From Candidatus Omnitrophota bacterium (lineage in GTDB: Bacteria; Omnitrophota; Gorgyraeia; Zapsychrales; JANLHA01), in contig JAKLFA010000002.1 in the NCBI GenBank assembly GCA_022711395.1, positions 259,864 to 323,863 on the forward strand: 64,000 bases of DNA. Reading direction: 5' to 3'. The stretch's first letter is position 1, and every line of letters begins with the position of its first letter. The notes beneath the pieces are model-generated. The model saw only the letters and a list, made by a program, of their open reading frames with translations. It did not search any database and was not told the origin of the DNA. Shown here one piece after another: positions 4,423 to 29,674 of this stretch. The translations under genes were made by a program, and so were the position numbers.

Positions 4423-5587
4423 GGGCCGCCCCCTTTTCCTTTAGAAGCTCCGGCGCATAACGCGAGATGATCGAGCCAGCACGCTTTAACCAGCTGTGTT
4501 CCTTAGCCATTTCGTAAGCGTTTTCCGTGACGGTCTTGTTCATCTCCGGCAGATCGATCGCCCGCTCAATGGCGGTTTTGAATGAGTTGAGGTCATCGGC
4601 CTTAAAAAGGAAAGCGGTCTTGTCCGGTTTTAGGAATTCACGGAATTGCTCGATGTCAGAGGCGATGATGGGACGTTTAGCCGCGCAATATTCAAAGATC
4701 TTGAGCGGCGTCCGGTTCGAGATCGGAGTTGATGAAAGGTTCGGCAAAAGAAAAAGGTCCGCCGCGGCCAGGTATTGGGCGATCTCGGCATGCGGAATAA
4801 ATCCCAGCACATGGACATTAGGCAATTCCTCAGCGGCGTATTTCCGATATTTGCGGACATCTTCATCGGCGCCCCCCATGAGAATAAATTGCACATCCGG
4901 AAGAAGCTGCGCGCATTCCATGATCAGATCGGCCCCTTTGAACGGGAACAGATGCCCGCTGTAAAGAGCAATGGTGTTAGGGACCGGAAGGCCCAGGCGC
5001 CGCCGCAGGATGGTCTTCTCCTCCTTCACATCGAAGAATTCCAAGTTCACGCCATTGGTCTCAACGAGCAGTTTTTCGGGTTGAACGCCCTCGTTGAAGT
5101 ATTGATCGCGGACCGTTTTGGAATTCAGAACGAAACCTAAGAATTTCGGGTGGTCCTTGAGCAGGGCCTGATCGCCAAAGCCTTCTTCAATGCCCGCGTG
5201 GCATTCCAGGATCGTGCGCATTCCAAGTCCGCAGGTCATCCGGGCGATCGCGGAGTGGCGGGTATAAACCACGGCTTGCCGATGAAGCCTGGCGTAGAGG
5301 ACCGAGAGTTTCATAAAAGCCGGGTAGCGGGTCTTCCAGCCGCCCTCTTCGCTCCAGCGTGCCGTTAACGGAAGCCTTACGATGGGGAACGGATGCCGGA
5401 TGCCGTAATAATCAAAAATATACTGGCTGGAATGCGTGATATCCTGGATACGGCCCCTGGTGAGCAGGCAAAAATTCTTTACGGTCTGTCCAAAAGCTTC
5501 AGCGGTCAGCATCATTTGGATCGAATGGGTCCATTTGCAGGGAATGTTGCCCTGGGAGATATAGATAAGTTTGTTGGAATTTGGCAT
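4415..5587 (-). CDS. Glycosyltransferase family 4 (GT-B, group 1)
   Basis: About 390 aa. The C-terminal half has the EX7E-like region typical of GT4 (..FLLPNLSSTPISNRTPLKIFEYCAAKRPIIASD..). Confidence 0.8.
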   Translation of the reverse strand: MPNSNKLIYISQGNIPCKWTHSIQMMLTAEAFGQTVKNFCLLTRGRIQDITHSSQYIFDYYGIRHPFPIVRLPLTARWSEEGGWKTRYPAFMKLSVLYARLHRQAVVYTRHSAIARMTCGLGMRTILECHAGIEEGFGDQALLKDHPKFLGFVLNSKTVRDQYFNEGVQPEKLLVETNGVNLEFFDVKEEKTILRRRLGLPVPNTIALYSGHLFPFKGADLIMECAQLLPDVQFILMGGADEDVRKYRKYAAEELPNVHVLGFIPHAEIAQYLAAADLFLLPNLSSTPISNRTPLKIFEYCAAKRPIIASDIEQFREFLKPDKTAFLFKADDLNSFKTAIERAIDLPEMNKTVTENAYEMAKEHSWLKRAGSIISRYAPELLKEKGAAHE

Positions 5588-5590
5588 AGT

Positions 5591-6241
5591 TTATTTTTTT
5601 AAAATTAAATAATATCCGGATGGCATACAGACGCCATCGGTATATGTTTTTAGATTATCCCCATACTCCAGATGAATGATATTTTCAAACTTCAGGAATA
5701 TAAAGATCAGGGACCGTAAAAAGAACGTCCAAAACCGCTGAGCAGAGCGGAACTCACATTGCAGCAAGACCCGTTGCAACAGGATCGCAATGGTCGAAAA
5801 TGCGTTTGATTCCTCCTGAATCGTGCAGGAGGAAAAGCGTTTTGTCAATAAGCGCAGCCCATATTTTGTGAAGCGGAAATAATCGTCGGGGGCATCATGG
5901 ATCGGGAAGGTGAAGCGCGTTGTGAGGATGAGGGTCCCTCCCGGCTGAAGAACACGGAAGATCTCATCAATGACCTTTTGTGGATCCTGGCAGTGTTCCA
6001 GGACTTCTGTGCAAAGGATCGTCGAAAATGAACAGGTCTTGAACGGAAGGGCTTGAGCGTCCGCTAAGACGGATATGCCCGGATATTTTTTAAGATTGAG
6101 GCGTATGCTGTTAGGGAAAAAGTTTCCATAATCTTCTGTTTTGGCGCCGATCTCGAGGACCAGATCGTTGGTTGAGTAGTCCTTGATAAACTCATTGATG
6201 CGTAGGCGGGAGATCTTGCTCGTTTTTATTTTATCGTTCAT
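5591..6241 (-). CDS. Class I SAM-dependent methyltransferase
   Basis: LEIGAKTEDYG (motif I-like) ... VLEHCQDPQKVIDEIFRVLQPGGTLIL (motif post-II/III). It sits between the GT and asnB genes in the glycan cluster. Confidence 0.75.
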   Translation of the reverse strand: MNDKIKTSKISRLRINEFIKDYSTNDLVLEIGAKTEDYGNFFPNSIRLNLKKYPGISVLADAQALPFKTCSFSTILCTEVLEHCQDPQKVIDEIFRVLQPGGTLILTTRFTFPIHDAPDDYFRFTKYGLRLLTKRFSSCTIQEESNAFSTIAILLQRVLLQCEFRSAQRFWTFFLRSLIFIFLKFENIIHLEYGDNLKTYTDGVCMPSGYYLILKK

Positions 6242-12208: not shown

Positions 12209-12613
12209 TTACATTTCCGTGATCAGGGCCCCTGTTGTCAGCACATAAGTATGGCTTCCTGTTGAGGCGGATAGTGGGGCGGCGGTGACGGAATAATCAT
12301 AATCAGAGAGGCTGTCAACGGAAAAAGTGTAGCCGGAATGTTCGCCGACAAAAAAGTCCTTGCTGATATACGGGGGAGCATCACCTACCAGGACATCCGT
12401 ATCAGCCGGGTAAACTGCGTGGATCACGGCATAATTTTCTAATGCGCTGCCGATAGCCTTAAGGCTGGCCTTGGCCATGGTTTCATTGGCCGTGAGCTTT
12501 GCGCGCAGAAGGTTGGGGATCGCGATGATAGCGAGCAACGCGATGATCGTCACAACGATCATGATTTCAACAAGCGTAAAACCAGGTTTTTTGTTTGGGA
12601 ATAAAGCCGGCAT
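12209..12613 (-). CDS. Prepilin-type N-terminal cleavage/methylation domain protein (pseudopilin/pilin-like)
   Basis: MPALFPNKKPG|FTLVEIMIVVTIIALLAIIAIPN is a class III signal peptide: G-FTLxE followed by a hydrophobic helix. Confidence 0.8.
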   Translation of the reverse strand: MPALFPNKKPGFTLVEIMIVVTIIALLAIIAIPNLLRAKLTANETMAKASLKAIGSALENYAVIHAVYPADTDVLVGDAPPYISKDFFVGEHSGYTFSVDSLSDYDYSVTAAPLSASTGSHTYVLTTGALITEM

Positions 12614-12633
12614 AGTTATTAATATATATCAGG

Positions 12634-13254
12634 TTATGGGGAGGTGTCCAGCAATCCTCGCTCTTTTAAGCGGTTCTCAAAAATTTGTGTCCAGAAGCCG
12701 TTCTTTTCATAAGCGACAAAATTCAGGTTTTGGGCTCCGGTCGGGAAAACGAAACTTTTTTGAGGCCTGTAGACGGTAAAAACATTTTGAATGCCGAATT
12801 TTCCGAGCAGATACCCCAAAAGAAAAACAACTTCCTGGGAAGCTTTGAGCTTTGCGGTCGCGGGCTTCCCTCCCTCCCGGGGATAGACAAAGTCATCCCC
12901 CGTCATGACCACGAAGGCGAAATCTGTCTTGGGGTGCTGCGCGATCAGCTCTCGTATCGATCGTGTGTCCAGCAAGGACGTCATCGGATAGATCACAAAG
13001 GGTTCGATCCCGTATTTTCGGATCGTGGAAAGGCAATCTTGATTGATCTCATCACGGTCGCCAAGGACCACAAAGATCCCGCGCTTGTTATCGGCGTGAA
13101 ATTTGTTAAAGGTGAAGTCGTCCTTGAAAGCGGATGGGCCATCCGCTCCGGGGACAGGATTTGAGGGCGCTTCCGGTTCGGGTTCCTGGGGCGGTTCCGG
13201 ACGTGGTTGCGGGGCCGGTTGTTGCTCTTCTAAAGGTTTTTGTTCATCGCTCAT
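12634..13254 (-). CDS. TIR-like domain protein (PF10137-like 'predicted nucleotide-binding protein containing TIR-like domain') with a Pro/Glu-rich N-terminal tail
   Basis: GIFVVLGDRDE...FAFVVMTGDDFVY...KASQEVVFLLGYLLGKFGIQNVFTVY parallels the PF10137 blocks fIVHGhde / fAvvLlTpDD / RaRQNVvfElGyf-gkLGr-rV. The N-terminus is PAPQPRPEPPQEPEPEAP low complexity. Start placed at the ATG at 13254 (AAGGAAAG Shine-Dalgarno). The track ORF begins with GTG at 13287. Confidence 0.6.
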   Translation of the reverse strand: MSDEQKPLEEQQPAPQPRPEPPQEPEPEAPSNPVPGADGPSAFKDDFTFNKFHADNKRGIFVVLGDRDEINQDCLSTIRKYGIEPFVIYPMTSLLDTRSIRELIAQHPKTDFAFVVMTGDDFVYPREGGKPATAKLKASQEVVFLLGYLLGKFGIQNVFTVYRPQKSFVFPTGAQNLNFVAYEKNGFWTQIFENRLKERGLLDTSP

Positions 13255-14539: not shown

Positions 14540-14655
14540 GAACTCTTCCCTTTTCTTCTTGACTAATCCAAAGTAAGATATTATATCTGTTTGTCGAATA
14601 TTTGCAAAAATTCAATGTTTTGCTAACAGGATCACTAAGCTAAAAAGGATCGCCA

Positions 14656-15633
14656 TTGCTAATCGGACATATGGAATTGGGAGATCATCCGCTGTTCTTG
14701 GCCCCGATGGAAGATGTGACGGATCAGCCATTTCGGGTGATCTGTAAGGAACTTGGCGCGGATGTTCTGGTCACGGAATTCACCAGTGTGGAAGCCTTGA
14801 TCCGCAATGTGAAAAAGGCCGCACACCGGATACGGGTTTTAGAAGAGGAACGCCCCGTTGGAGTGCAGATCTTTGGGTTTAATGAAGATTCGTTTTCTAA
14901 AGCGGTCGAGATTGTTGTTCAGCAAAAACCGGATTTTATTGATATTAATGCCGGCTGCTGCGCGCGAAAGCACGCGGCCCGGGGCGAAGGCGCCGGTTTG
15001 TTGCGGGACCTTCAAAATTTTGAAAGGATCGTAAAGCGGGTTGTTGCCTCCTCCCCTTTGCCCGTGACGGTCAAGACCCGCCTTGGCTGGGACCATGACT
15101 CGATCGTGATTTTAGAAGTCGCCAGGATGGTCGAGGCTGCTGGCGCGTCCGCCTTGACCGTTCATTGCCGGACCAAACAACAAATGTATAAGGGTGAGGC
15201 GGATTGGAGCTGGCTTGAGAAGATCAGAAAAACGATCTCGATCCCGTTGATCGGCAACGGCGATGTGATCGAGCCGGAACACGCTAAGATCCTGTTGGAT
15301 TGCGGCTGTGATGGGGTCATGATCGGCCGGGCCGCTTTGCGCAATCCCTGGGTCTTCAAGCAGGTCCGGTATTTTTTGAAGACCGGGCTAAAACTTTCTG
15401 CCATCTCGTTACAAGAGCGGGTCGCGATATGCAAAAAACACCTCCACTTTTATTCCCGCCATCAAGGGACCCGGGATCGGTTGTATGCCTTTCGAAAATT
15501 TTACACGGGGTATTTCAACGGCATTGCCGGTTGCGCGAAATTACGGGCCGCTTTGATGACGGCGGTCACGGCGACGGAGATCGAAAACGTTCTTGATGAT
15601 TTCTTGCGCCATTCCTCGGCGGATACAAATTAA
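14656..15633 (+). CDS. dusB: tRNA-dihydrouridine synthase
   Basis: LFLAPMEDVTDQPFRVICKELGADVLVTEF is the Dus FMN TIM-barrel start. The catalytic Cys region GAGLLRDL is present. Confidence 0.9.
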   Translation: MLIGHMELGDHPLFLAPMEDVTDQPFRVICKELGADVLVTEFTSVEALIRNVKKAAHRIRVLEEERPVGVQIFGFNEDSFSKAVEIVVQQKPDFIDINAGCCARKHAARGEGAGLLRDLQNFERIVKRVVASSPLPVTVKTRLGWDHDSIVILEVARMVEAAGASALTVHCRTKQQMYKGEADWSWLEKIRKTISIPLIGNGDVIEPEHAKILLDCGCDGVMIGRAALRNPWVFKQVRYFLKTGLKLSAISLQERVAICKKHLHFYSRHQGTRDRLYAFRKFYTGYFNGIAGCAKLRAALMTAVTATEIENVLDDFLRHSSADTN

Positions 15634-15650: not shown

Positions 15651-17216
15651 CTACGGAGTATTTGTTCGTTTAAAAAGCAAGAGGAACGTGTTTTCTTTTT
15701 GAATGGTTTCTTCGAGGGTGTAATCGGAGCCTGTCAGAAAAGCGATCAAGAAGTCCTTGACCTCTTGTTGATAGTGAGATAACAGCAGCCACAACCGTCT
15801 TGGGCGGTGGGCGTAATCATCAGGAGCCTTACCCTCCCTTTGTTCGAGAGAAGGATCGCACATGGCATAAAACCGCTCGCTCGGTGTCTCAAGTAAGGCC
15901 AGGCACCGGCTTTTGTCAACGGTCTCCAGCCGATCATATGTCAGATAGATCCCTGCAATGGGGAGCGTGTCGTTTCTAAAGCGGGAATAATAGTTGAAAC
16001 CGTGCTTCGCGCTGTCATTCATCATTAAGCCGTCGCCAGCTTCGAAATGCCTGTATAAATACGGGATCATTTCACGGATATTCTGTGAGTTCGATCCGAT
16101 GGAACGATAGTTTTTTAAAGGAATGACAGAAGACGCGATCACAACTGCAAGCAGAATGAAGCCGGTGTTTTTTTTGATTCTGTTGCCGGGGTTTTTAAAT
16201 AACGAGACAAAACCATATGTCATAAGGATGATCAGGTATGGAGCTAGAAATGTCGTTGTTCGGTCGTGGATCGGGTAGAGATGGAGAATGGACAGAATGA
16301 AGACGCTTAAAAACGGAGCGGTGAAAATGAGCAGGGCATTGAGGTCTTTTCGGAAAAGCAGCCAGCTTCCCATGACGGCGAGGATGGCGGATGCCAGTGG
16401 GTTACTTCCAGAATGTGTTAAGATCGTTTTCCAGCAAAGAAAAGTCCATTCCAATATTCTATTGATATTGGCTGGCCATGGGAAGAAGCTGTTCGCCCAG
16501 CTTTCGAAAAGGCGCTGATCTCCCAGAAAAAATCTTAGTGATAAAAGAAAATAGCAGATAAAGCCAATGCCCCAGACAATCAACAAGCCTCCCCAGATTT
16601 TGGCGTCCTTCCATTTTTTTTGAAAGATGCCCTTGAGAAAAAGCAAGCCGGCCGACATAAACAGAACAAAGATCCCCGGAAATGAAAGAAGAATAACCAT
16701 AACGCCGATCAGCCCGAATAAGATGATCTCACGGAGAGGCCGTGCGCTCTGCGCGTGCTTAAAGAAAAGGAACGAAACAAGGATAACGGAAAACATATCA
16801 GAAGCATATGGTTTTAATTCCGATGAATGGGCCAGGATCGAAGTGCTTAAACTAAAAAGAAGCACGGCTGGAAAACGGTAAGCTGTTGGAAAAAGCTGCC
16901 GACTCCAGTGCCAAAAAAACAACAGGGCGGTAAGGCTGCACAGGAAAGGGAACAGTCTTAGCACATTTTCAAATGGTCCCTTTTGCTTCACGAACATCTT
17001 GATCGTTGCCATAAAACCGATCGGGTAGGCATGCATTTGATCATAAGTTGAGCTGTCTAAACGGGAAATTTTTCCCAAATCATAAGCGCAGATCTTGTGC
17101 GCGGTATTCGCTTCGTCTAACCAAAGTTCATGACCGGCCTGATAGATGGAGAATCGTAGAAAAAGACCAAGAGACAAGAGCAATGGAATGGAGATATTGT
17201 AGAATATGGATTTCAT
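15651..17216 (-). CDS. Integral membrane glycosyltransferase of the PMT/ArnT (GT39/GT83-like) family
   Basis: About 12 TM helices. ELWLDEANTAH lies in the first periplasmic loop, where PMT/ArnT enzymes carry the DE motif. There is a large C-terminal soluble domain. Confidence 0.55.
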   Translation of the reverse strand: MKSIFYNISIPLLLSLGLFLRFSIYQAGHELWLDEANTAHKICAYDLGKISRLDSSTYDQMHAYPIGFMATIKMFVKQKGPFENVLRLFPFLCSLTALLFFWHWSRQLFPTAYRFPAVLLFSLSTSILAHSSELKPYASDMFSVILVSFLFFKHAQSARPLREIILFGLIGVMVILLSFPGIFVLFMSAGLLFLKGIFQKKWKDAKIWGGLLIVWGIGFICYFLLSLRFFLGDQRLFESWANSFFPWPANINRILEWTFLCWKTILTHSGSNPLASAILAVMGSWLLFRKDLNALLIFTAPFLSVFILSILHLYPIHDRTTTFLAPYLIILMTYGFVSLFKNPGNRIKKNTGFILLAVVIASSVIPLKNYRSIGSNSQNIREMIPYLYRHFEAGDGLMMNDSAKHGFNYYSRFRNDTLPIAGIYLTYDRLETVDKSRCLALLETPSERFYAMCDPSLEQREGKAPDDYAHRPRRLWLLLSHYQQEVKDFLIAFLTGSDYTLEETIQKENTFLLLFKRTNTP

Positions 17217-19691: not shown

Positions 19692-20315
19692 TTATTTTTT
19701 AGCCGCGGCATATAACTTGGCGACCGCGTCCCAATTGATGACGCTCCAAAAGGCATCGATGTATTCCGGCCTTCTATTCTGATATTTCAGATAGTAGGCA
19801 TGCTCCCACACATCCAGATTCAATATTGGGGCTCCTTGAACCGCGGCATCCTCTGCGGTCGGGGAATCCTGGTTCGGCGTTTTTGTGACCGCAAGCGTTC
19901 CATCCTTTTTAACGATCAGCCAGGCCCAGCCACTGCCGAATTGTGTTAGTGCGGCGTTTGAGAACTCCTCTTTGAATTTTTCGAATGAACCGAAGGTCTT
20001 ATCAATGGCCTTGGCCAGGTCGCCTTCCGGTTTGGATTTGCCTTTTCCCAAAACAGACCAGAAAATCTCGTGGTTGACATGCCCCCCGCCGTTATTGCGA
20101 ACAGCGGCGCGCGCCTCCTGCGGGACAGAAGACAGGTTCGCGATCAGGTCTTCTGCAGACCGTTTGGCAAGGTCAGGATATTTTTCTACGGCGGCATTGA
20201 GTTTGCTGGTATAAGCAGCGTGATGTTTGTCATGATGGATCTCCATCGTCTTTGCGTCGATATAAGGCTCTAACGCGTTATAAGCGTATGGAAGATCTTT
20301 TGTTATATAAGGCAT
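19692..20315 (-). CDS. sodA: Fe/Mn superoxide dismutase
   Basis: [25 protein letters not shown]...[18 protein letters not shown]. Canonical Fe/Mn-SOD metal ligands and signature. Confidence 0.95.
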
Positions 20316-20388: not shown

Positions 20389-21330
20389 TTATTCCCCTTC
20401 TAAAAAACGCTCAGCCTCAAGGGCGGCCATGCATCCGCTTCCGGCAGCTGTAATGGCCTGACGATAGACCTTATCCTGGACATCGCCACAGGCAAAAACT
20501 CCCTTGATGTTCGTCTGAGTGGTTCCGGGTATTGTCTTGATGTAGCCGGTCTCATCACAAAGAAGCTGTCCGTTCAAAAAGGATGTATTGGGCAGATGGC
20601 CCACGGCGTAAAAGAGCCCTTTTACTTCCAGGGTCCGCAATTCGTTCGTTTTGACATGCTGGACCCTCACGCCGGTCAGGAATTTTTCCCCGATGGCTTC
20701 CACGGGAACGTGATCCCAAATGATCTCGATCTTAGGATTAGAAAACGCCCTTTTCTGCATGGATTTGGAAGCTCGCAGTTGATCTCTCCTGTGAACAAGG
20801 TAGACACGTGAGGCGAATTTTGTGAGGAATGTGGCTTCTTCCACTGCGGAGTCCCCGCCGCCGATCACGGCCAAGGCCTGGTTGCGGAACATCGGCAAAG
20901 CTCCGTCGCAAACCGCACAGGCGGAAATCCCTTTTTGCCAGTATTCAGACTCGCCTTTCAGGCTCATTCGCCTGGCGGTGGCTCCGGTGGCAATGATCAA
21001 GGCTTCGCATTCAAAAATTTCTTTACCGGTCTTGATCTTGAACGGACGCGATGATACGTCAACCGCATCCACGGTCTTTGTTTCAATGCGGGTGCCGTAG
21101 CGCAGGGATTGCTCCCTCATGCGCATCATAAGTTCAGGGCCGGAAACAGCCTGCGGAAAACCGGGAAAATTTTCGATCTCTGTTGTCGTGGTCAGTTGTC
21201 CGCCTGCCGCGATCCCGGCGGCCATGAAGCCCTCAAACATCAGGGGTTTAAGATTGGCCCGGGCGGTATAGATCGCAGCGGTATGGGCGGCTGGACCAGA
21301 ACCGATGATAATGATCTTTTCCATCTGCAT
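20389..21330 (-). CDS. trxB: Thioredoxin-disulfide reductase
   Basis: [15 protein letters not shown] motif, redox-active CAVCDG, and the NADPH motif [10 protein letters not shown]. Confidence 0.95.
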
Positions 21331-21501
21331 CCTTTCCGTTAAAATTCCTGCTCATTCTAGTATAAAATCACAGGCTAATCAAATACATATCTGGATTTGA
21401 AGCTTTTTTAAACCGAAGAAGCGGTTGTATTTAGATTATTCGCTTGATATGTAAATTAATCAGTGCTAAAGTATACATACTTATCTTAGGATTATAATTA
21501 A

Positions 21502-23322
21502 ATGAAAAAAGAAATTTTTGGACATACCTTTCACATCCCGGTCATGGGGACGGGTTTTACGATCGACAGCCCGCTCAAAGTCGCCAAATACGGCATTTCA
21601 TCGGTCATTTCTTTGGTCGACGATACGCTGATGGAACAGATGCGGAAATTTTATGCCGAAAAGTTCGGTGAGCCCTATATCCCGATCGAAAAAGGCGATC
21701 CTGACCGTCGCGCGCGAAGGGTCACGGAATATCTTAATTTGCTCGATAAGCTTGTCAAAAAGCAGTTTGAAGAGCTTCGGAATTCCGCCTTTGAGATCGA
21801 AAGTGAGATCCACAAATATTTTGAACTTTTACCAGATACTTCCCCGCTCAAAAAAGTCTATACCCATATGATGGCCCTCCCAGAGGGGACAAAAAAGACA
21901 GAGATGCAGAATGAGCTGCGAAAGAACATGCAGCCTGGAAGTATTGATGTCAATATTATGACCAAGCTCGATAAGCCTGCGCTTGATGAACATGGGCGTC
22001 CCGCATTCAATGAGTTTTCGGAAGCGCTCGCGAATTTACGAGGGTATGCGCAAAGCAGTCTAAAATCCGCCATCGTTTTTTCAGCCGGATTGAACCAGCG
22101 CTTATACAGTTACATTGAAAATTTCAAGGATTTTTATGCTGATGCTTCTGGGGACATCAAAAAACGCATTGTTCTGAAAGTCAGTGATTTCCGTTCCTCT
22201 TTGATCCAGGGAAAAATTTTTGCAAAAAAGGGTTTATGGGTCTCGGAATTTCGTGTTGAATCCGGCTTGAACTGCGGGGGCCATGCCTTCTCCTCCGGAG
22301 GATATTTGATGGGGCCTATTCTGGAAGAGTTCAAGACAAAGCGAACGGAGCTTTATTCACAGCTCAAGGATCTGTATGATGCTGCTCTTCAGGCCAAGAA
22401 CATCCCTGCGCCTAAAGTTGCGCCGACCGTGAGCGTGACCGCTCAGGGCGGGATCGGCACCTATGAAGAAGATTCTTTTCTGAGGCGCCATTATGATCTG
22501 GATTCGACGGGATGGGGCACTCCTTTTCTTTTGTGTCCGGAAGCGACCAATGTGGATGAGTCAACTCTTCAGAAGCTTGTTGATGCCGATGAGGATGACC
22601 TTTACATGAGCGATTCCTCTCCCCTGGGGATCCCGTTCAATAATTTGCGTAACAGTTCTTCCGAAGAGGACAAGCGAGGGCGCATCAGATCAGGAAAACC
22701 CGGAGCCCCTTGCGTCAAGGGAACACTCGCCATGAATGATGAGTTCGGGACCCTGCTCTGTCCCGCATCGATCACCTATCAGACAAAGAAGATCGATCAG
22801 TTGAAGAAACTCAATCTCCCGGATGAAGAATTCAAACGGCAGTACGCTCTTATCACCGCCAAGGCCTGTATCTGTCATCAACTCGGAAATGGCGTCCTCC
22901 AAAAGAATGGGATTATTCCGAATGATAGCCAGCCAGTTTCTGTTTGCCCGGGGCCAAATCTCGCATATTTTTCTAAGGTCGTGAGTTTAAAAGAAATGAT
23001 CGATCATATTTACGGACGGATTTCCGTGCTGAATGACAAACCGCGGCCCAATCTTTTTTTGAAAGAATTGGTTTTGAATATTGAGCACTTGGCGCATTAT
23101 GTGCAAGATATCGTGCCGCAGATGGATGCTAAACAGAAGAAATACGCGGAACAGTTCTGCCAAAACCTTTTTGACGGGATCGATTATTACCAAACGCTTT
23201 TTTCCGAAACTGTCGGATCCGCCAAGATCTTCGGCGATAGCGCCAAAGAATCACTGGACGATTTGCGCCAGCATCTGCAGTCTTTCATGTCCCAACATCA
23301 GCTGGTTCTCACCACAGCCTGA
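21502..23322 (+). CDS. Hypothetical 606 aa protein, possibly a divergent FMN-dependent TIM-barrel oxidoreductase-like (NMO/FabK/PfaD-like) fold with large insertions
   Basis: Weak motif-level resemblance only. IPVMGTGFTIDSPLKVAKYGISSVISL resembles the NMO PIIqapMagvs-peLaaAVS-AGGLG block. VTAQGGIGTYEE...DSTGWGTPFLLCPEA resembles ViAAGGI-dgrg...GAdGVQMGTRFLat-Es. I recognise no named family. Confidence 0.35.
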   Translation: MKKEIFGHTFHIPVMGTGFTIDSPLKVAKYGISSVISLVDDTLMEQMRKFYAEKFGEPYIPIEKGDPDRRARRVTEYLNLLDKLVKKQFEELRNSAFEIESEIHKYFELLPDTSPLKKVYTHMMALPEGTKKTEMQNELRKNMQPGSIDVNIMTKLDKPALDEHGRPAFNEFSEALANLRGYAQSSLKSAIVFSAGLNQRLYSYIENFKDFYADASGDIKKRIVLKVSDFRSSLIQGKIFAKKGLWVSEFRVESGLNCGGHAFSSGGYLMGPILEEFKTKRTELYSQLKDLYDAALQAKNIPAPKVAPTVSVTAQGGIGTYEEDSFLRRHYDLDSTGWGTPFLLCPEATNVDESTLQKLVDADEDDLYMSDSSPLGIPFNNLRNSSSEEDKRGRIRSGKPGAPCVKGTLAMNDEFGTLLCPASITYQTKKIDQLKKLNLPDEEFKRQYALITAKACICHQLGNGVLQKNGIIPNDSQPVSVCPGPNLAYFSKVVSLKEMIDHIYGRISVLNDKPRPNLFLKELVLNIEHLAHYVQDIVPQMDAKQKKYAEQFCQNLFDGIDYYQTLFSETVGSAKIFGDSAKESLDDLRQHLQSFMSQHQLVLTTA

Positions 23323-25037: not shown

Positions 25038-25682
25038 GTGATGCAAAACATCTATCTGAAACAGATGGAGATCGGCCCGATGCAGAATTTCCAGTATTTC
25101 ATCGGTTGTCAAAGGACCCGTCAGATCGCTGTTGTTGACCCTGCCTGGGACATGGAACGCCTGCTCAGCGAAGCTGAAAATGATGAACTTGAGATCCGTC
25201 ATATCCTTTTGACCCACGGTCATCCTGATCATATGGAAGGCGCCGCAGAGCTTTCAAGGCGGCTGGAGATCCCTGTTTATATCTCCGAGAACGAAGCTCC
25301 TTTTTATATGCCTCATATCCAACGTTTGCGTCATATCATCGATGGGCAAAAGATCCCGATCGGAAAGGTCGAATTGCAGTGCATCGCTACGCCGGGTCAT
25401 ACGCCCGGATGCATGTGCTTTCGCATTGGGAATATTCTCCTTACGGGGGACACTCTATTCATTGATGGATGCGGACGATGCGACCTTCCAGGAGGAGATC
25501 CCCAGCGGATGTATGACACGCTTTATCATGTGATCAAAAGGCTGCCGGATGACCTCATCATTTACCCCGGGCACAGTTACGGACCATCCTCGTTCTGCAC
25601 TTTAGGCAAGCAGAAGCAGACAAACCCCTATCTGACCTGCAAGAGTAAAAAAGACTTCCTTGAACACCGGATGGGCTATTAA
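25038..25682 (+). CDS. MBL-fold metallo-hydrolase (glyoxalase II / hydroxyacylglutathione hydrolase-like)
   Basis: HILLTHGHPDHMEGA (the HxHxDH motif), downstream His/Asp ligands, about 214 aa. Confidence 0.85.
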   Translation: MMQNIYLKQMEIGPMQNFQYFIGCQRTRQIAVVDPAWDMERLLSEAENDELEIRHILLTHGHPDHMEGAAELSRRLEIPVYISENEAPFYMPHIQRLRHIIDGQKIPIGKVELQCIATPGHTPGCMCFRIGNILLTGDTLFIDGCGRCDLPGGDPQRMYDTLYHVIKRLPDDLIIYPGHSYGPSSFCTLGKQKQTNPYLTCKSKKDFLEHRMGY

Positions 25683-26545
25683 TGGTCCTTGAATCCTTTA
25701 AATAGCATTCTCTGGTAGATCCAACTGTAGAGTTTAAACGGGAGGATTTCCCGCAGGGTGATCTGAAGGCGGCTTTCGATCTCAGGAATGTAGCGCAAAG
25801 CAGGATCTTTTTTGCCGATGATCTGCTCGATCAATGCGGCAATGTCCTCCGGGTCGCGGTAATTATCCTTGAGGTGTTCATCGATCAATGCCTTAAGAAA
25901 ATGCGAACGTTTGAAATACGGGCTTCCTTCATTGTTAAAATTTTTCGCGAGCCGTTGATTTTCTCCAAAGATTTTTGTCTTGTAAGCGCCCGGTTCGATC
26001 AGCACAACCCGAATGCCGAAAGGCCTCAGCTCATAATACAGGCTTTCTGAAAAACCTTCGAGCGCCCATTTGCTGGCGTTATAAGCTCCGAATGCCGGCG
26101 CGCCATAGCGTCCGGAAATGCTTGAGATGTTGATGATCGTTCCTGAAGCCTTGGGCCTCATCAGCGGGATCACCGCGCGCGTGACGTTCTGAACGCCGAA
26201 AAAATTCGTTTCCATCAGGGAACGGATCTCTTCCTGTGTTAAGTCCTCGAAGTATCCGCCAATGGCATAGCCGGCATTGTTGATCACAACGTCAATGTGG
26301 CCGTGATCAGCCCCGATCTCTTTGACCACTTGCCCGATCGAAACAGGATCACAGACATCCAACGGAAGGATCTTGGCCTGTGCGTTGCGTTCCTTCAATT
26401 CATTAATAAGGGCGCCTTGTTTATTAAGGTCGCGCATCGTTGCGTATACGGCATGGCCTTTGGAAGCAAGACGGGCGGCGGCCAAAAGTCCAAAACCGCT
26501 GGAACAGCCTGTGATGAGGATGACTTTCGAATGTGATGAGTTCAT
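25679..26545 (-). CDS. SDR family NAD(P)-dependent oxidoreductase
   Basis: KVILITGCSSGFGLLAAARLASKGHAVYATMRD (TGxxxGxG), NNAG, and the YNASK catalytic tetrad. Start set at the MNSSHSK ATG (codon 35 of the track ORF) to avoid overlapping aroC. Confidence 0.85.
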   Translation of the reverse strand: MNSSHSKVILITGCSSGFGLLAAARLASKGHAVYATMRDLNKQGALINELKERNAQAKILPLDVCDPVSIGQVVKEIGADHGHIDVVINNAGYAIGGYFEDLTQEEIRSLMETNFFGVQNVTRAVIPLMRPKASGTIINISSISGRYGAPAFGAYNASKWALEGFSESLYYELRPFGIRVVLIEPGAYKTKIFGENQRLAKNFNNEGSPYFKRSHFLKALIDEHLKDNYRDPEDIAALIEQIIGKKDPALRYIPEIESRLQITLREILPFKLYSWIYQRMLFKGFKDH

Positions 26546-26556
26546 AAAAGAAAAGG

Positions 26557-27621
26557 TTATTGAATGCTTTTTTGGATCAGCCAGCAATCCAAGAGCGTCA
26601 CGTTGATCATGGCTTCGATGACCGGAACAATGCGCGGGCACAAGCATGGATCATGACGGCCTTTAACTTCAAGTTCCCGGTCTTTTCCTTCAGCCGTAAC
26701 GGTCGTTTGACGTTTGGAGATCGAGGACGGAGGCTTGACCGCGACCCTTAAAATGATGTCATTGCCGTTGGAAATACCGCCGAGTATGCCGCCTGCATGA
26801 TTTGTTGCGGTCGTGATGGTTCCATTCTTTTGCAAAAAGGCGTCATTGTTTTCAGATCCCCGCATTTGCGAAACGCCAAACCCTTCTCCAAATTCCAAGG
26901 CCTTGATCGTGGCGATGGAAAAAAGCGCTTGAGCCAAGCGCGCATTCAGCTTATCAAAGACCGGGTCTCCCAGGCCTGCAGGGCAGCCTTGCACAACGGC
27001 TTCCACGATCCCGCCGACGGAATCTCCGGCCGCCTTGGCCTCTTCGATCAGTTTGATCATTTTTTCGGCAGCGACAGGGTCACAGGTTCGCACAGGATTT
27101 TTTTCGATCGCATTGAGATCAATGGTCTGAGCCTGGACCGTTCCGACTGCTTTGGTGTAAGCGACGGTCCGGATCCCCAGGGAGTGAAGGATCTTTTTCG
27201 CGACAGCGCCGGCAGCCACACGGCAGGCGGTTTCACGTCCAGAAGAACGGCCGCCACCCCGGTAATCGCGGATCCCGTATTTTTCTGTGTAGGTAAAATC
27301 CGCGTGTCCTGGCCGAAAAATATCTTTGAGATGATTGTAATCCTTGGATTCTTGGTTGGTGTTGCGGATCAGGATCGCCAGCGGAGCTCCGGTTGTCTTA
27401 CCTTCAAACAGGCCGGATAAAATTTCAGCCTTATCTTCTTCCTTGCGCGGAGTCGTCACCGAACTTTGCCCGGGTTTACGCCGGTCAAGTTCTGCTTGAA
27501 TATCAGCTTCGGAGAGTTCGATGTTTGGAGGAACGCCGTCCAAGACAACACCGATCGCGGGTCCATGGCTTTCACCGAAAGTGGTCATGCGAAAAAGCTG
27601 TCCGAATGTGTTTCCTGCCAT
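26557..27621 (-). CDS. aroC: Chorismate synthase
   Basis: MAGNTFGQLFRMTTFGESHGPAIGVVLDGVPP is the canonical AroC N-terminus. Confidence 0.95.
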   Translation of the reverse strand: MAGNTFGQLFRMTTFGESHGPAIGVVLDGVPPNIELSEADIQAELDRRKPGQSSVTTPRKEEDKAEILSGLFEGKTTGAPLAILIRNTNQESKDYNHLKDIFRPGHADFTYTEKYGIRDYRGGGRSSGRETACRVAAGAVAKKILHSLGIRTVAYTKAVGTVQAQTIDLNAIEKNPVRTCDPVAAEKMIKLIEEAKAAGDSVGGIVEAVVQGCPAGLGDPVFDKLNARLAQALFSIATIKALEFGEGFGVSQMRGSENNDAFLQKNGTITTATNHAGGILGGISNGNDIILRVAVKPPSSISKRQTTVTAEGKDRELEVKGRHDPCLCPRIVPVIEAMINVTLLDCWLIQKSIQ

Positions 27622-27636: not shown

Positions 27637-28251
27637 TTACGCCAGCCATGGCCTTGACGCAGCCAAAGACTGCTCATAGGAATCGATTTTATCTGAAAAT
27701 TGCAGTGTCCAGCCGATATGATCCAGTCCTTTGAGCAGGCAATCTTTCGCGAAGGCATGGATCTCAAAGGTGTATTCTTTTCCGCTCGGGCTGATCACTT
27801 TTTGCGCCGGCAGGTCCGCTGAAATCTGGCTTCCCGGCGACTTCAAAATTTCCTGAAAAAGTTCGTCAACGGATTTACTGTCTAATCGTACCAGAAGAAT
27901 TCCGTTCTTTAAACTGTTATTGTAAAAAATATCGGCAAAGCTCGGGGCGATGATTACCTTAAAGCCGTAATCTGACAGTGCCCACGGGGCATGCTCTCGG
28001 GAAGAACCGCAGCCGAAGTTGTCGCGCGCCAAAAGCACGGTTGCCTTACGGTAAACCGGCTGGTTTAAGACAAAATCCGGATTTTCCTTGGTCCCTTCAT
28101 AATCCGTGAACCGCAGTTCATGGAAGACGTGCTTGCCAAAACCGGTGCGCTCGGTCTTTTTCAGGAATTGTTTTGGTATGATCATGTCGGTATCGACATT
28201 GCTTCTGTCCAGCGGAGCGGCGATCCCTTTGTGAGTCAAAAATGGTTGCAT
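27637..28251 (-). CDS. leuD: 3-isopropylmalate dehydratase small subunit
   Basis: MQPFLTHKGIAAPLDRSNVDTDMIIPKQFLK. Start set at this ATG (codon 61 of the track ORF), 23 nt after the leuC stop. Confidence 0.85.
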   Translation of the reverse strand: MQPFLTHKGIAAPLDRSNVDTDMIIPKQFLKKTERTGFGKHVFHELRFTDYEGTKENPDFVLNQPVYRKATVLLARDNFGCGSSREHAPWALSDYGFKVIIAPSFADIFYNNSLKNGILLVRLDSKSVDELFQEILKSPGSQISADLPAQKVISPSGKEYTFEIHAFAKDCLLKGLDHIGWTLQFSDKIDSYEQSLAASRPWLA

Positions 28252-28273
28252 GAGTGTTCCTTTTTTCAGAGCA

Positions 28274-29674
28274 TTAAAGATATTTTCGTGCGTCGGCCAG
28301 TTTTCCTTCAATGGCAGCCGCCGCCGCCATGATCGGGCTGACCAGATGCGTCCGGCCGCCTGGGCCTTGCCGGCCTTCAAAGTTGCGGTTGCTGGTTGAA
28401 GCGCAGCGTTCCCCCTGGCTGAGCTGGTCATTGTTCATGGCCAGGCACATGGAACAGCCGGCGTAACGCCATTCAAACCCCGCCTTGATAAAAATTTTAT
28501 CCAACCCTTCTTTCTCAGCTTGCTTGCGCACCCGTCCAGAACCCGGGACGACCATGGCCCGGATGCCGGTTTTCACTTTACGCCCTTTTAAAATTTTTGC
28601 GGCTGCTCGCAGGTCTTCAATGCGGCCGTTGGTGCATGAACCAAGAAAGACCGTGTTGATCTCGATATCGGTCATTTTCATTCCGCCGGTCAACCCCATA
28701 TAGCGCAGGGCGTTTTTACAGGATGTCTGTTCTGTTTTGTCTGTGTAATCCTCCGGTTTAGGAACACAGCCGCCGATGGACGTTACCTGGCCTGGGCTGG
28801 TCCCCCAGGTGACCTGGGGATCAATGTCTTTCGCCTTGAATTCATAGACCTTATCGAATTGAGCTCCCTTATCAGAGGCCAGGGTTTTCCAATAACTCAC
28901 GGCCTTTTTCCACTGGTCCTTGTTGGGAGCGAATTCTTTCCCCTTTAAATATTTAAACGTAACTTCATCTGGCGCGATCATCCCGGCACGGGCTCCAGCT
29001 TCAATGCTCATGTTGCAGACCGTCATCCGGCCTTCCATGGAAAGGCTTCGGATCGCGGATCCGCCATATTCCACGACATAGCCGGTGGCGCCCGCTGTTC
29101 CGATCTGCCCGATGATATACAGGATGATGTCCTTGGCGGTCACACCCTTTTTCAGCCTCCCGTCAACCTTGATCAGCATGGCCTTAGATTTGTTCTGCTG
29201 CAGGGTTTGTGTCGCCAAAACATGTTCCACTTCCGAAGTGCCGATCCCGAAGGCCAAAGCGCCGAATGCACCGTGGGTGGCGGTATGTGAATCCCCGCAG
29301 ACGATCGTCATCCCCGGCTGGGTGATGCCGTGCTCGGGCCCGATGATATGAACGATCCCCTGGTTTTCACTTTGAAAATCATAAAGTTCAACATCAAACT
29401 CTTTGCAGTTTCTGGCCAGGGCCTCCATCTGGATCTTGGACATTCCAGTCACGGCTTTGGGATCTTTTGTGTCCGTCGGAACATTGTGGTCCATGGTCGC
29501 GGTCGTTTTTTTAGGGCAACGGATTTTGCGTTTGCTCAATCTTAAACCCTCAAAGGCCTGCGGGCTTGTAACCTCATGTACCAAATGGCGGTCAATATAA
29601 ATTAAGGCTGTATCATTCTGGCTCTCTCTGACCAGATGGGCATCCCAGATTTTGTCATACAATGTCTTAGCCAT
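28274..29674 (-). CDS. leuC: 3-isopropylmalate dehydratase large subunit
   Basis: [15 protein letters not shown]..., with aconitase-family Fe-S ligands CGDSHT and the GSCTNGR-like block. Confidence 0.9.

What the first reader, a model, noticed from the sequence alone, without database searches (positions are those of the whole stretch)
21502..23322. 606 aa orphan protein with distant NMO/FabK-like FMN TIM-barrel motifs beside sod and trxB
This large ORF shows clean coding character. I could match it only at motif level to FMN-dependent NMO/enoyl-reductase-type TIM barrels (..IPVMGTGFTIDSPLKVAKYGIS.. and ..AQGGIGTYEE...GWGTPFLLCPEA..). The intervening sequences are long and unrecognised, and there is a Cys-containing C-terminal region (CICHQLGNG, VCPGP).

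It is divergently transcribed from trxB-sod through a 170 nt AT-rich shared promoter region. That arrangement hints at co-regulation with oxidative-stress defence.
Basis: inference. Interest (0 to 1): 0.55.

Follow-up and report, generated by a model that had tools for sequence, protein, structure and literature searches.

The report
Uncharacterised FabK/FabX-like flavoenzyme family
This gene encodes a member of a very widespread, highly conserved but unnamed enzyme family that is a distant, enlarged relative of the flavin enzymes bacteria use to reduce or desaturate fatty-acid chains; it probably also carries an iron-sulfur cluster, and its substrate is still unknown.

Summary
It is not an orphan. 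At least 8000 protein clusters and at least 600 species carry a homologue of about 600 aa. These span Omnitrophota, Bacteroidota (including cultured Pedobacter, Runella and Pontibacter), Ignavibacteria, Desulfobacterota, Acidobacteriota and others, at about 50% identity between phyla. No Pfam, NCBIfam or PDB-sequence match exists.

The NMO/FabK guess holds. A confident AlphaFold model (pTM 0.86) matches H. pylori FabX best (Foldseek E 7e-9), then a PKS enoyl reductase, nitronate monooxygenase and the FAS enoyl-reductase domain. A profile-profile alignment to NMO/FabK gives E 1.8e-6 with the FMN motifs and the catalytic His in register.

After the barrel, five near-invariant Cys sit where FabX holds its [4Fe-4S] cluster. 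Recurrent natural fusions to an NADPH diflavin reductase and to a PlsC-type acyltransferase, plus ferredoxin-reducing KorAB as a neighbour in two phyla, suggest a ferredoxin/flavodoxin-fed FMN/Fe-S reductase, probably acting on lipid.

The oxidative-stress link is weak. sod is never a neighbour elsewhere, and trxB is nearby only in Omnitrophota. In Bacteroidota the gene instead sits in low-oxygen clusters (cbb3 oxidase, hemN, Crp/Fnr-type regulator). The substrate is unresolved.

The parts
21502..23322 (+). Complete ORF, 606 aa plus TGA stop. It belongs to an unnamed family of about 600-aa proteins.
   Evidence: ORF. (100% match to P0001 from an Omnitrophota MAG; at least 8000 homologous clusters). 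(no Pfam, NCBIfam or PDB-sequence hit).
21331..21501 (.). 171-nt AT-rich divergent intergenic region shared with trxB, holding back-to-back sigma-70-like promoter candidates.
   Evidence: 70.8% AT against 49.8% for the window. (+ strand site 21444-21472; - strand site 21382-21354). These are consensus matches only and are not shown to function.
21502..21621 (+). Residues 1-40: barrel strands beta1-beta2 with the conserved HxFHIPVMGTGF motif. Its position corresponds to the NMO/FabK 'P-I-x-Q-G-G-M' FMN-site motif.
   Evidence: strands at 11-12 and 33-37. (G16 44/46, M15 38/46). The equivalence to the FabK motif is by position only; hhalign on this short piece was not significant.
21622..21936 (+). 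Residues 41-145: a helical insertion of about 100 aa between beta2 and beta3. FabK, NMO and FabX lack it.
   Evidence: helices 41-54, 69-93, 102-108, 115-125, 130-142; pLDDT above 90. (the alignment to FabK only starts at residue 144).
21937..22536 (+). Residues 146-345: barrel strands beta3-beta8, the part homologous to NMO/FabK. DVNIMTK aligns to GVNIML, VFSAGLN to TTGAGNP, and IVLKVSD to IVIPVVPS.
   Evidence: hhalign probability 89.8%, E 1.8e-6, 186 columns. (Foldseek hits to FabX, DfnA ER, NMO and FAS ER). (N151 and M153 46/46).
22258..22284 (+). Residues 253-261, ESGLNCGGH: the counterpart of the NMO/FabK 'E-A-G-G-H' active-site motif. H261 aligns with the catalytic His (FabK His144). 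C258 next to it is specific to this family.
   Evidence: register. (E253, S254, G260 and H261 46/46; N257, C258 and G259 45/46). PMC8626469 for the role of the His in FabK and FabX.
22432..22542 (+). Residues 311-347: SVTAQGGIGT (beta7) and TGWGTPFLLCPE (beta8), the counterparts of the FMN-phosphate motifs 'AAGGI' and 'GT-R-F' of NMO/FabK.
   Evidence: the same register from two hhalign runs. (member P0203 hits Pfam NMO over this stretch, E 1.4e-4). (Q315, G316, G317 at 44-45/46; G337 46/46).
22537..23052 (+). Residues 346-517: post-barrel subdomain of helices plus a beta-hairpin, carrying five near-invariant Cys: C404 (22711-22713), C420 (22759-22761), C456 (22867-22869), C458 (22873-22875) and C482 (22945-22947). 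It is the proposed Fe-S binding site.
   Evidence: C404, C420 and C458 46/46; C456 and C482 45/46. (FabX holds its [4Fe-4S] in a post-barrel subdomain). (the subdomain on its own ranks FabX, PfaD and MlnA ER first, but not significantly, E 0.07). Metal binding itself is inferred, not shown.
23053..23319 (+). Residues 518-606: C-terminal three-helix bundle that is poorly conserved in sequence. In the natural fusions the diflavin reductase or the acyltransferase is attached after this bundle.
   Evidence: helices 518-540, 543-570, 575-598. (low conservation). (the fusion partners start at about residue 640-680).

Best explanation
**What it is.** The gene encodes an oxidoreductase of the NMO/FabK/FabX superfamily.

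**Proposed working parts.**
- An FMN sits in a (beta/alpha)8 barrel. It is held by the conserved VNIM, QGG(I/V)G and G-W-G-T/S motifs.
- Next to it is an invariant His (H261) with an adjacent invariant Cys (C258). This pair is the likely acid/base pair.
- Behind the barrel is a subdomain with five near-invariant Cys. It most likely binds an iron-sulfur cluster that relays single electrons to or from the FMN, as in FabX.

**Proposed mechanism.** The cluster is fed by a low-potential carrier: ferredoxin or flavodoxin in most organisms, and a fused NADPH diflavin reductase in some Omnitrophota. Electrons therefore flow donor -> Fe-S -> FMN -> substrate. The reaction is reduction of an activated C=C bond, most probably in an enoyl-thioester or another lipid intermediate. 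The enzyme is oxygen-independent and probably oxygen-sensitive.

**Shown:** fold, homology, motif conservation, Cys conservation, the fusions and the neighbourhoods.

**Inferred:** FMN and Fe-S binding, the direction of electron flow, and the substrate class.
For: - **Fold:** the AF2 model has pTM 0.86 and mean pLDDT 82. The top Foldseek PDB hits are FabX (E 7e-9, TM 0.67 normalised to FabX), DfnA enoyl reductase (5e-6), 2-nitropropane dioxygenase (2e-4) and the yeast FAS ER domain (6e-4).
- **Sequence:** hhalign of a 46-sequence family profile against a 13-sequence NMO/FabK profile gives probability 89.8%, E 1.8e-6, over 186 columns. The catalytic His and both FMN-phosphate motifs are in register. 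One member hits Pfam NMO directly.
- **Conservation:** H261, N151, K226, D229, E249, R251 and E253 are 46/46 across phyla. C404, C420 and C458 are 46/46. C258, C456 and C482 are 45/46.
- **Fe-S precedent:** FabX carries a [4Fe-4S] cluster in a post-barrel subdomain, 13.4 A from the FMN (PMC8626469).
- **Electron supply, fusion:** a fusion to Flavodoxin_1 + FAD_binding_1 + NAD_binding_1 recurs in two clusters and more than 15 contigs.
- **Electron supply, neighbours:** KorAB (2-oxoacid:ferredoxin oxidoreductase) lies next to the gene in Omnitrophota. It also lies directly upstream on the same strand in two Cytophagaceae loci.
- **Lipid link:** a fusion to a PlsC-type acyltransferase was found in two independent samples. 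In addition, most characterised branches of the superfamily act on acyl- or enoyl-ACP (one search hit list; PMC8626469).
- **Oxygen link:** 20 of 80 loci place the gene among ccoNO, fixGHI-type genes, hemN, Usp and receiver-Crp/Fnr regulators. A hemerythrin gene follows it in a Desulfobacterales MAG.
Against: - No cofactor has been observed, and I could not read coordinates from the model. So neither clustering of the five Cys in space nor their distance to the FMN site has been checked.
- The Cys spacing (C-x15-C-x35-C-x-C-x23-C) is unlike FabX (C-x3-C-x3-C-x11-C).
- The subdomain on its own matches FabX only at E 0.07.
- The lipid link rests on one rare fusion, and that fusion has an atypical NHRDIVLD motif (HX5D rather than HX4D).
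- No fab, pls or acp gene recurs next to the gene in 80 loci.
- The many invariant charged residues in the barrel (K226, D229, R231, E249, R251, E253) would also suit a polar, non-lipid substrate.
- Feeding ferredoxin-level electrons into an ordinary enoyl reduction would be thermodynamically wasteful.
Confidence: 0.45

Rival explanations
1. It is a functional analogue of FabX/UfaA. It would be an oxygen-independent acyl-ACP dehydrogenase/isomerase, or an acyl-lipid desaturase, that introduces the double bond of unsaturated fatty acids. Electrons would leave the substrate through FMN and the Fe-S cluster to an external acceptor.
For: - FabX is the best structural match, both for the whole protein and for the C-terminal subdomain.
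- A Neisseria FabX homologue is reported as essential for anaerobic unsaturated fatty-acid synthesis, with an unknown electron acceptor (PMC11300592).
- The gene sits in low-oxygen gene clusters in 20 of 80 loci.
- The family is abundant in anaerobic phyla.
Against: - The recurrent fusion to an NADPH-dependent diflavin reductase supplies electrons. Oxidising an acyl chain with NADP+ as acceptor is strongly uphill (established redox potentials).
- Identity to FabX is only about 17%, and FabX's Cys motif is not kept.
- Canonical FabX homologues at about 40% identity already exist in Bacteroidales.
Confidence: 0.2
2. It is a redox or nitrosative stress enzyme acting on a small polar substrate such as a nitronate, quinone or peroxide-derived compound. 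It would be co-regulated with trxB and sod.
For: - The superfamily includes nitronate monooxygenases.
- The gene is divergent from trxB-sod in this window across a shared 171-nt region.
- trxB is nearby in 10 Omnitrophota loci.
- Many invariant charged residues line the barrel.
- Usp and hemerythrin genes are neighbours in some loci.
Against: - sod is a neighbour in none of the 80 related loci, and trxB in none outside Omnitrophota.
- In most Omnitrophota loci bioB, and sometimes korAB, lies between trxB and the gene.
- Nitronate monooxygenase chemistry needs O2, yet the family is richest in anaerobes.
- About 50% identity across phyla and the absence from plasmids point to a core function rather than an accessory detoxification role.
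Confidence: 0.15
3. The conserved Cys bind structural zinc or form disulfides rather than an Fe-S cluster. The protein would be an ordinary NAD(P)H-dependent FabK-type flavoenzyme, or a pure electron-transfer or regulatory protein serving neighbouring Fe-S and radical-SAM enzymes (BioB, ThiC, HemN).
For: - The Cys spacing is not a canonical Fe-S motif.
- The subdomain fold match is not significant.
- Neighbours are often radical-SAM or Fe-S enzymes that need one-electron donors: BioB in 11 loci, ThiC in 10, HemN in 7 and NadA in 1.
Against: - Five Cys are invariant over at least 7 phyla, including a C-P motif and Cys positioned at helix N-termini.
- The fusion partner is a diflavin reductase, a class that normally delivers single electrons to metal centres (established for CysJ/CysI, P450-BM3 and NOS).
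- A strictly invariant catalytic His and barrel residues argue for substrate chemistry rather than simple electron transfer.
Confidence: 0.1

Closest known systems
FabX (H. pylori HP0773; PDB 7E1Q, 9LT5) and its homologue in Neisseria gonorrhoeae (NGO1024, UfaA): FMN + [4Fe-4S] acyl-ACP dehydrogenase/isomerase
   Same: - It is the best structural match (Foldseek E 7e-9).
- Both have an NMO-type FMN barrel with a catalytic His in a GGH motif.
- Both have a post-barrel subdomain of helices plus two short strands that carries conserved Cys.
   Different: - Identity is only about 17%, and the protein is 606 aa against 363 aa.
- It has an extra helical insertion of about 100 aa (residues 41-145) and a C-terminal three-helix bundle.
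- The Cys pattern is C-x15-C-x35-C-x-C-x23-C, against C300-x3-C-x3-C-x11-C320 in FabX.
- It has an extra invariant active-site Cys258 and a set of invariant charged barrel residues.
- The natural fusions imply electron input rather than output.
FabK (enoyl-ACP reductase II; PDB 2Z6I) and Pfam NMO (PF03060)
   Same: A profile-profile alignment at E 1.8e-6 covers beta3-beta8 and the first post-barrel hairpin. The VNI(M/L), (E/N)xGGH, GGI and G(T/S)xF motifs are in register.
   Different: - It fails the Pfam gathering score (no hit for the window protein; the best member reaches 21.8 bits against the 28-bit cutoff).
- FabK's post-barrel region aligns only as far as family residue 390; the Cys-rich segment beyond it has no FabK counterpart. 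In FabX the equivalent [4Fe-4S] subdomain replaces FabK's NAD(P)H-binding motif (PMC8626469). Whether this family binds NAD(P)H was not tested.
- It is twice the size.
Trans-acting enoyl reductases of PUFA and trans-AT PKS systems (PfaD, DfnA-ER, MlnA-ER) and the fungal FAS ER domain
   Same: They share the same superfamily fold. Their post-barrel subdomains rank just after FabX when the C-terminal subdomain is searched alone. All act on enoyl-thioesters.
   Different: - Those enzymes use NADPH directly and have no Fe-S cluster.
- No PKS or PUFA synthase genes lie near this family.
- The subdomain matches are not significant (E 0.4-0.9).
Nitronate monooxygenase / 2-nitropropane dioxygenase (PA1024, PDB 2GJL)
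   Same: Same barrel and FMN motifs (Foldseek E 2e-4). Two RefSeq homologues are already labelled 'nitronate monooxygenase family protein'.
   Different: NMO needs O2 and has no Cys-rich subdomain, insertion or electron-donor fusions. This family is most abundant in anaerobic lineages.
2,4-dienoyl-CoA reductase FadH, enoate reductases and dihydropyrimidine dehydrogenase, compared for working principle only (from established knowledge; no homology tested)
   Same: The electron path proposed here is the same: NAD(P)H -> flavin -> [4Fe-4S] -> FMN in a TIM barrel -> C=C bond. In dihydropyrimidine dehydrogenase and related enzymes an active-site Cys acts as the proton donor.
   Different: Those barrels are of the OYE or DHODH type, not the NMO type. 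Foldseek places OYE-type OPR3 only at E 0.1 or worse. Here the NADPH module is of the CysJ/CPR type and is fused only in a minority of members.

Membership tests
NMO/FabK superfamily (Pfam PF03060 NMO; FMN-dependent TIM barrels) | A (beta/alpha)8 barrel whose closest solved structures belong to this superfamily | tested here: met
   (pTM 0.86). In one search all 8 hits with E <= 1e-3 are superfamily members (FabX x5, DfnA ER, 2GJL, yeast FAS), and all have probability 1.0.
NMO/FabK superfamily (Pfam PF03060 NMO; FMN-dependent TIM barrels) | Significant sequence or profile similarity to the family model | tested here: inconclusive
   The Pfam gathering score is not reached: there is no hit for the window protein, and only 1 of 46 members hits, at 21.8 bits against a cutoff of 28. 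Profile-profile hhalign does detect homology (probability 89.8%, E 1.8e-6, 186 columns). The result is homology at superfamily level, not membership of the curated Pfam family.
NMO/FabK superfamily (Pfam PF03060 NMO; FMN-dependent TIM barrels) | FMN-binding motifs: Asn of 'VN(I/L)' on beta3, 'GG(I/V)' on beta7, 'G-(T/S)-x-F' on beta8 | tested here: met
   (alignment register). (N151 46/46; G316 45/46; G317 44/46; G337 46/46; position 340 is T or S in 44/46; F342 41/46). FMN binding itself was not measured.
NMO/FabK superfamily (Pfam PF03060 NMO; FMN-dependent TIM barrels) | Catalytic His in the 'A-G-G-H' loop after beta6 | tested here: met
   H261 aligns with FabK His144 and is 46/46 invariant.
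FabX (FMN/[4Fe-4S] acyl-ACP dehydrogenase/isomerase) | Four-Cys [4Fe-4S] motif C300-x3-C304-x3-C308-x11-C320 in a C-terminal subdomain | tested here: not met
   A Cys-rich post-barrel subdomain exists, but its spacing is C404-x15-C420-x35-C456-x-C458-x23-C482. The subdomain-only fold match to FabX has E 0.07.
FabX (FMN/[4Fe-4S] acyl-ACP dehydrogenase/isomerase) | Orthologue-level similarity and size (about 360 aa; reported homologues share 36-40% identity) | tested here: not met
   14-17% identity across the Foldseek alignments to the five FabX entries. The protein is 606 aa with two extra modules. Reported homologue identities are from PMC11300592.
FabX (FMN/[4Fe-4S] acyl-ACP dehydrogenase/isomerase) | Bound [4Fe-4S] cluster within electron-transfer distance of the FMN | not testable with these tools
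   Model coordinates are not exposed, and no ligand-aware prediction or experiment is available.
FabX (FMN/[4Fe-4S] acyl-ACP dehydrogenase/isomerase) | Decanoyl-ACP dehydrogenase/isomerase activity and ACP docking | not testable with these tools
   This needs biochemistry or genetic complementation.
FabK (enoyl-ACP reductase II) | Direct NAD(P)H-dependent enoyl-ACP reduction and location among fab genes | tested here: inconclusive
   No fab, acp or pls gene recurs beside the gene in 80 loci. A minority of members carry a fused NADPH diflavin reductase instead. Activity was not tested.

The most novel reading that the evidence does not exclude
This family would be a previously unrecognised, widely distributed class of ferredoxin/flavodoxin-driven FMN/Fe-S enzymes that performs an oxygen-independent step in membrane-lipid acyl-chain metabolism. 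Examples would be a new type of enoyl reductase or an anaerobic desaturation or saturation step. It would fill a pathway gap shared by Omnitrophota, Bacteroidota, Ignavibacteria, Desulfobacterota and Acidobacteriota, and would be switched on at low oxygen in aerobic Bacteroidota.
Probability: 0.2. Interest if true: 0.8.

Novelty: new variant of a known kind. Interest (0 to 1): 0.55.

Why it matters
A protein of about 600 aa that keeps roughly 50% identity between distant phyla is almost certainly doing something central. It is found in at least 600 species, yet it has no Pfam or NCBIfam model and no literature.

Placing it in the FabK/FabX superfamily, with a probable Fe-S relay and identified electron-donor partners, turns a 'hypothetical protein' into a testable enzyme. 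The naturally self-sufficient NADPH-reductase fusion offers a ready assay system. Cultured, genetically tractable hosts such as Pedobacter, Runella and Pontibacter allow knock-outs.

If the substrate is a lipid intermediate, it would add a new enzyme class to bacterial fatty-acid metabolism. That pathway is of interest both for membrane adaptation to anoxia and as an antibiotic target.

Tried and rejected
**Direct searches that found nothing**
- Pfam, NCBIfam and PDB-sequence searches with the single protein and with family profiles gave only noise: apolipoprotein and uL29 helices at E of 0.004 or weaker.
- hhalign of the family profile against a single FabK sequence was weak (E 0.035) but in the right register. 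It became significant only after I built a 13-sequence NMO profile from plasmid-borne genes.
- hhalign of the N-terminal beta1-beta2 piece alone was not significant and was mis-registered.

**Structure of the C-terminal subdomain**
- Predicted separately and searched on its own, it ranked FabX first, but not significantly.

**Gene context**
- Across 80 genome loci and 7 further contig look-ups, no conserved operon partner appeared, and no fab, pls or acp neighbours.
- The oxidative-stress idea was tested by looking for sod and trxB near homologues and rejected as a general feature.
- I considered heme (protoporphyrinogen oxidation), queuosine/pterin (QueD neighbour) and radical-SAM-reductase roles. 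None accounts for both the acyltransferase fusion and the reductase fusion, so they are kept only as minor possibilities.

**Other databases and literature**
- There was no match on plasmids.
- Seven literature searches found no paper on the family.
- The Neisseria UfaA paper is not held.
Full report
**Observation.** The ORF at 21502-23322 (+) is real. It encodes 606 aa and ends in TGA.

The upstream minus-strand genes are thioredoxin reductase (20389-21330) and Fe/Mn superoxide dismutase (19692-20315). The downstream gene is thiC, and the wider neighbourhood is housekeeping: ilvBN, aroC, leuCD and aconitase. The 171-nt spacer to trxB is 70.8% A+T against 49.8% for the window. It contains back-to-back sigma-70-like sites.

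**Not an orphan.** Direct searches of Pfam, NCBIfam and PDB sequences return only noise. A search of the large protein collection, however, gives at least 8000 homologous 90%-identity clusters. An identical protein comes from a Candidatus Omnitrophota MAG. The best 120 hits are all about 600-650 aa, and none has a precomputed Pfam domain.

An exhaustive search of 50%-identity representatives finds 954 clusters at E <= 1e-3. A scan of one genome per species finds at least 600 species. These span Omnitrophota, Bacteroidota (cultured Pedobacter, Runella, Pontibacter, Adhaeribacter, Aquirufa, Fontibacter and Parapedobacter), Ignavibacteria/Melioribacter, Desulfobacterota, Acidobacteriota, Sumerlaeota and Zixibacteria. 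Identity to the window protein is 48-57% across these phyla.

Database names are 'hypothetical protein', with two RefSeq exceptions labelled 'nitronate monooxygenase family protein'. The family is absent from 72,556 plasmids. No paper on it was found.

**Fold and homology.** An AlphaFold2 model built from a 34-sequence alignment is confident, with pTM 0.86 and mean pLDDT 82. Foldseek against the PDB gives eight hits at E <= 1e-3, all from one superfamily:
- H. pylori FabX, five entries, best E 7.1e-9 (TM 0.67 normalised to FabX)
- the DfnA trans-AT PKS enoyl reductase, E 4.6e-6
- 2-nitropropane dioxygenase 2GJL, E 2.4e-4
- yeast fatty-acid synthase, E 6e-4

OYE-type barrels follow only at E 0.1 or worse.

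For a sequence-level test I used the S. pneumoniae FabK sequence. I first validated it against PDB 2Z6I (684 bits, full length). I then collected twelve diverse NMO-family genes from annotated plasmids. hhalign of the 46-sequence cross-phylum family profile against this 13-sequence NMO/FabK profile gives probability 89.8% and E 1.8e-6 over 186 columns, residues 144-390 against FabK 61-240. The register is chemically sensible:

| This family | FabK |
|---|---|
| DVNIMTK | GVNIML |
| VFSAGLN | TTGAGNP |
| IVLKVSD | IVIPVVPS |
| ESGLNCGGH(261) | EGMEAGGH(144), the catalytic His |
| VTAQGGIGT | VIAAGGIADG |
| TGWGTPFLLCPE | VQVGTRFVVAKE |

One divergent member (P0203) hits Pfam NMO directly over the last two motifs, at E 1.4e-4, which is below the gathering score. 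The family is a remote branch of the NMO/FabK superfamily, but it is not a member of the curated Pfam family.

**Anatomy.** The barrel is interrupted between beta2 and beta3 by a helical insertion of about 100 aa (residues 41-145). After it come a post-barrel subdomain (346-517) and a three-helix bundle (518-598).

Across 46 sequences from all the phyla, the following are invariant: N151, M153, K226, D229, S232, Q236, E249, R251, E253, S254, G260, H261, F263, C404, C420 and C458. C258, C456 and C482 are conserved in 45/46. The two other Cys of the window protein (C345, C553) are not conserved.

FabX is the closest structure. It differs from FabK precisely in having a post-barrel subdomain of six helices and two strands that binds a [4Fe-4S] cluster through C300/C304/C308/C320, 13.4 A from the FMN (PMC8626469). 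The subdomain here has a comparable make-up: helices plus a two-stranded hairpin. It carries five invariant Cys, one of them in a C-P-G-P motif.

The Cys spacing differs from FabX, however. When the subdomain was modelled on its own (pTM 0.71), it ranked FabX, PfaD and MlnA-ER first, but without significance (E 0.07-0.9). Fe-S binding is therefore an inference.

**Fusions and neighbours.**
- Two clusters of Omnitrophota proteins of about 1167 aa carry the family domain followed by Flavodoxin_1, FAD_binding_1 and NAD_binding_1. This is a CysJ/CPR-type NADPH diflavin reductase. They were seen on more than 15 contigs from independent assemblies.
- A 981-aa protein from two independent samples fuses the domain to a PlsC-type acyltransferase (PF01553, 34.7 bits; NHRDIVLD motif).
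- An 812-aa form has an N-terminal TetR domain.

In 80 genome loci the gene is usually monocistronic, and no partner is universal. Two patterns recur.
1. **In Omnitrophota** the order is trxB-(korB-korA)-bioB, then the gene (divergent), then thiC (convergent). bioB occurs in 11 loci, trxB in 10, thiC in 10 and korAB in 5.
2. **In Sphingobacteriia, Cytophagia and relatives** 20 of 80 loci place the gene among ccoNO, a FixI-type ATPase, FixH, DsbD_2, hemN, Usp, D-lactate dehydrogenase, a PAS histidine kinase and a receiver-cNMP-Crp regulator. This is the make-up of a FixK/Fnr-type low-oxygen regulon; that reading rests on established knowledge of such regulons and is an inference here.

KorAB also lies directly upstream on the same strand in two Cytophagaceae loci. 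Other tight neighbours are a QueD/PTPS-like gene in Cytophagales (6-13 bp), a hemerythrin in a Desulfobacterales MAG, NadA, and chorismate synthase.

**The oxidative-stress idea.** sod is not within 6 kb of the gene in any of the 80 loci. trxB is nearby only in Omnitrophota, usually with bioB in between. The adjacency in this window is therefore best explained as lineage synteny that has lost bioB and korAB. It is not good evidence of co-regulation. A shared divergent promoter region is real, but it is not evidence of shared function.

**Most likely mechanism.** I propose an FMN/Fe-S oxidoreductase in which electrons enter from ferredoxin or flavodoxin, or from the fused NADPH diflavin reductase. 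They would pass through the Cys-ligated cluster to the FMN and reduce an activated C=C bond, with H261 and C258 as the acid/base pair.
- The direction is inferred from the NADPH-reductase fusion and from the ferredoxin-reducing KorAB neighbour.
- The substrate class, enoyl-thioester or lipid, is inferred from three things: the superfamily's dominant chemistry (FabK, FabX, PfaD, PKS and FAS enoyl reductases), the rank of FabX in the fold search, and the acyltransferase fusion.

Against this, there is no fab or pls neighbourhood, the lipid fusion is rare, and the many invariant charged barrel residues could fit a polar substrate. I put 0.45 on this reading. The rivals are a FabX-like anaerobic dehydrogenase/isomerase (0.2), a small-molecule redox-stress enzyme (0.15), and a zinc-binding or pure electron-carrier protein (0.1).

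**Classification and novelty.** The protein passes the fold, FMN-motif and catalytic-His tests for the NMO/FabK superfamily. It fails the Pfam threshold, and it fails FabX's defining Cys motif, size and identity. It is best described as a new architectural variant within a known superfamily: insertion + barrel + Cys-rich subdomain + helical bundle, with an external or fused electron donor.

The individual gene is ordinary for its phylum. The family is what deserves attention. It is large, strongly conserved and unnamed, and it now has a concrete, testable hypothesis and a natural self-sufficient fusion to test it with.

Noticed in passing
L019:5992-9498, L083:3042-6545, L099:6011-9517: These loci hold natural fusion proteins of about 1167 aa. 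The family domain is followed by Flavodoxin_1 + FAD_binding_1 + NAD_binding_1, a CysJ/CPR-like module. The fusion recurs in independent Omnitrophota assemblies. JGI labels one member 'NADPH-dependent sulfite reductase flavoprotein alpha-component'.
   Followed up: partly
L081:7107-10052 and L082:4198-7143: A 981-aa fusion of the family domain to a PlsC-type acyltransferase (PF01553) was found in two independent samples. Its His motif reads NHRDIVLD, which is HX5D rather than the canonical HX4D.
   Followed up: partly
L100:2221-4659 and L101:121-2559: An 812-aa form carries an N-terminal TetR DNA-binding domain fused to the family domain. It was seen on at least 2 contigs. It could be a genuine regulator-enzyme fusion or a missed stop codon or frameshift.
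   Followed up: no
L062 and L063 (Cytophagaceae; korB of L062 at 4642-5688, with korA further upstream of it): KorA-KorB (2-oxoacid:ferredoxin oxidoreductase) lies directly upstream of the family gene on the same strand. The same pair is a neighbour in five Omnitrophota loci. That makes it a cross-phylum association with a ferredoxin-reducing enzyme.
   Followed up: partly
L027, L031, L033, L069 (Cytophagales), immediately downstream of the family gene: A 136-164-aa 6-pyruvoyl-tetrahydropterin synthase/QueD-like gene with a CxxxHGH motif follows the family gene after only 6-13 bp. This suggests co-transcription. A pterin or queuosine link was not explored.
   Followed up: no
L071:2872-3288: In a Desulfobacterales MAG a hemerythrin-domain protein follows the family gene after 27 bp. 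This is compatible with oxygen sensing or oxygen protection.
   Followed up: no
window 12209-13254 (-): A TIR-domain protein (CAP12-PCTIR_TIR, about 12634-13254) sits next to a small type-IV-pilin-like N_methyl protein (about 12209-12613). It may be a defence-related gene among housekeeping genes. The coordinates are derived from L096 by an offset of +11501.
   Followed up: no
window 15651-17216 (-): A 521-aa multi-pass membrane protein with no Pfam hit on record lies between dus and ilvB.
   Followed up: no
window 25679-26647 (-) and 27637-28431 (-): The longest ORFs for the SDR gene (322 aa) and leuD (264 aa) extend upstream of the public gene calls (288 aa and 224 aa) and overlap their neighbours. 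The true starts are probably internal.
   Followed up: no
window 14644-15630 (+): The tRNA-dihydrouridine synthase (Dus), another FMN TIM barrel, scored better against my small 13-sequence NMO HMM (E 5.5e-6) than the target ORF did (E 1.1e-3). Plain HMM hits between FMN barrels can therefore cross family lines. The hhalign register and the fold ranking were needed to assign the target.
   Followed up: yes
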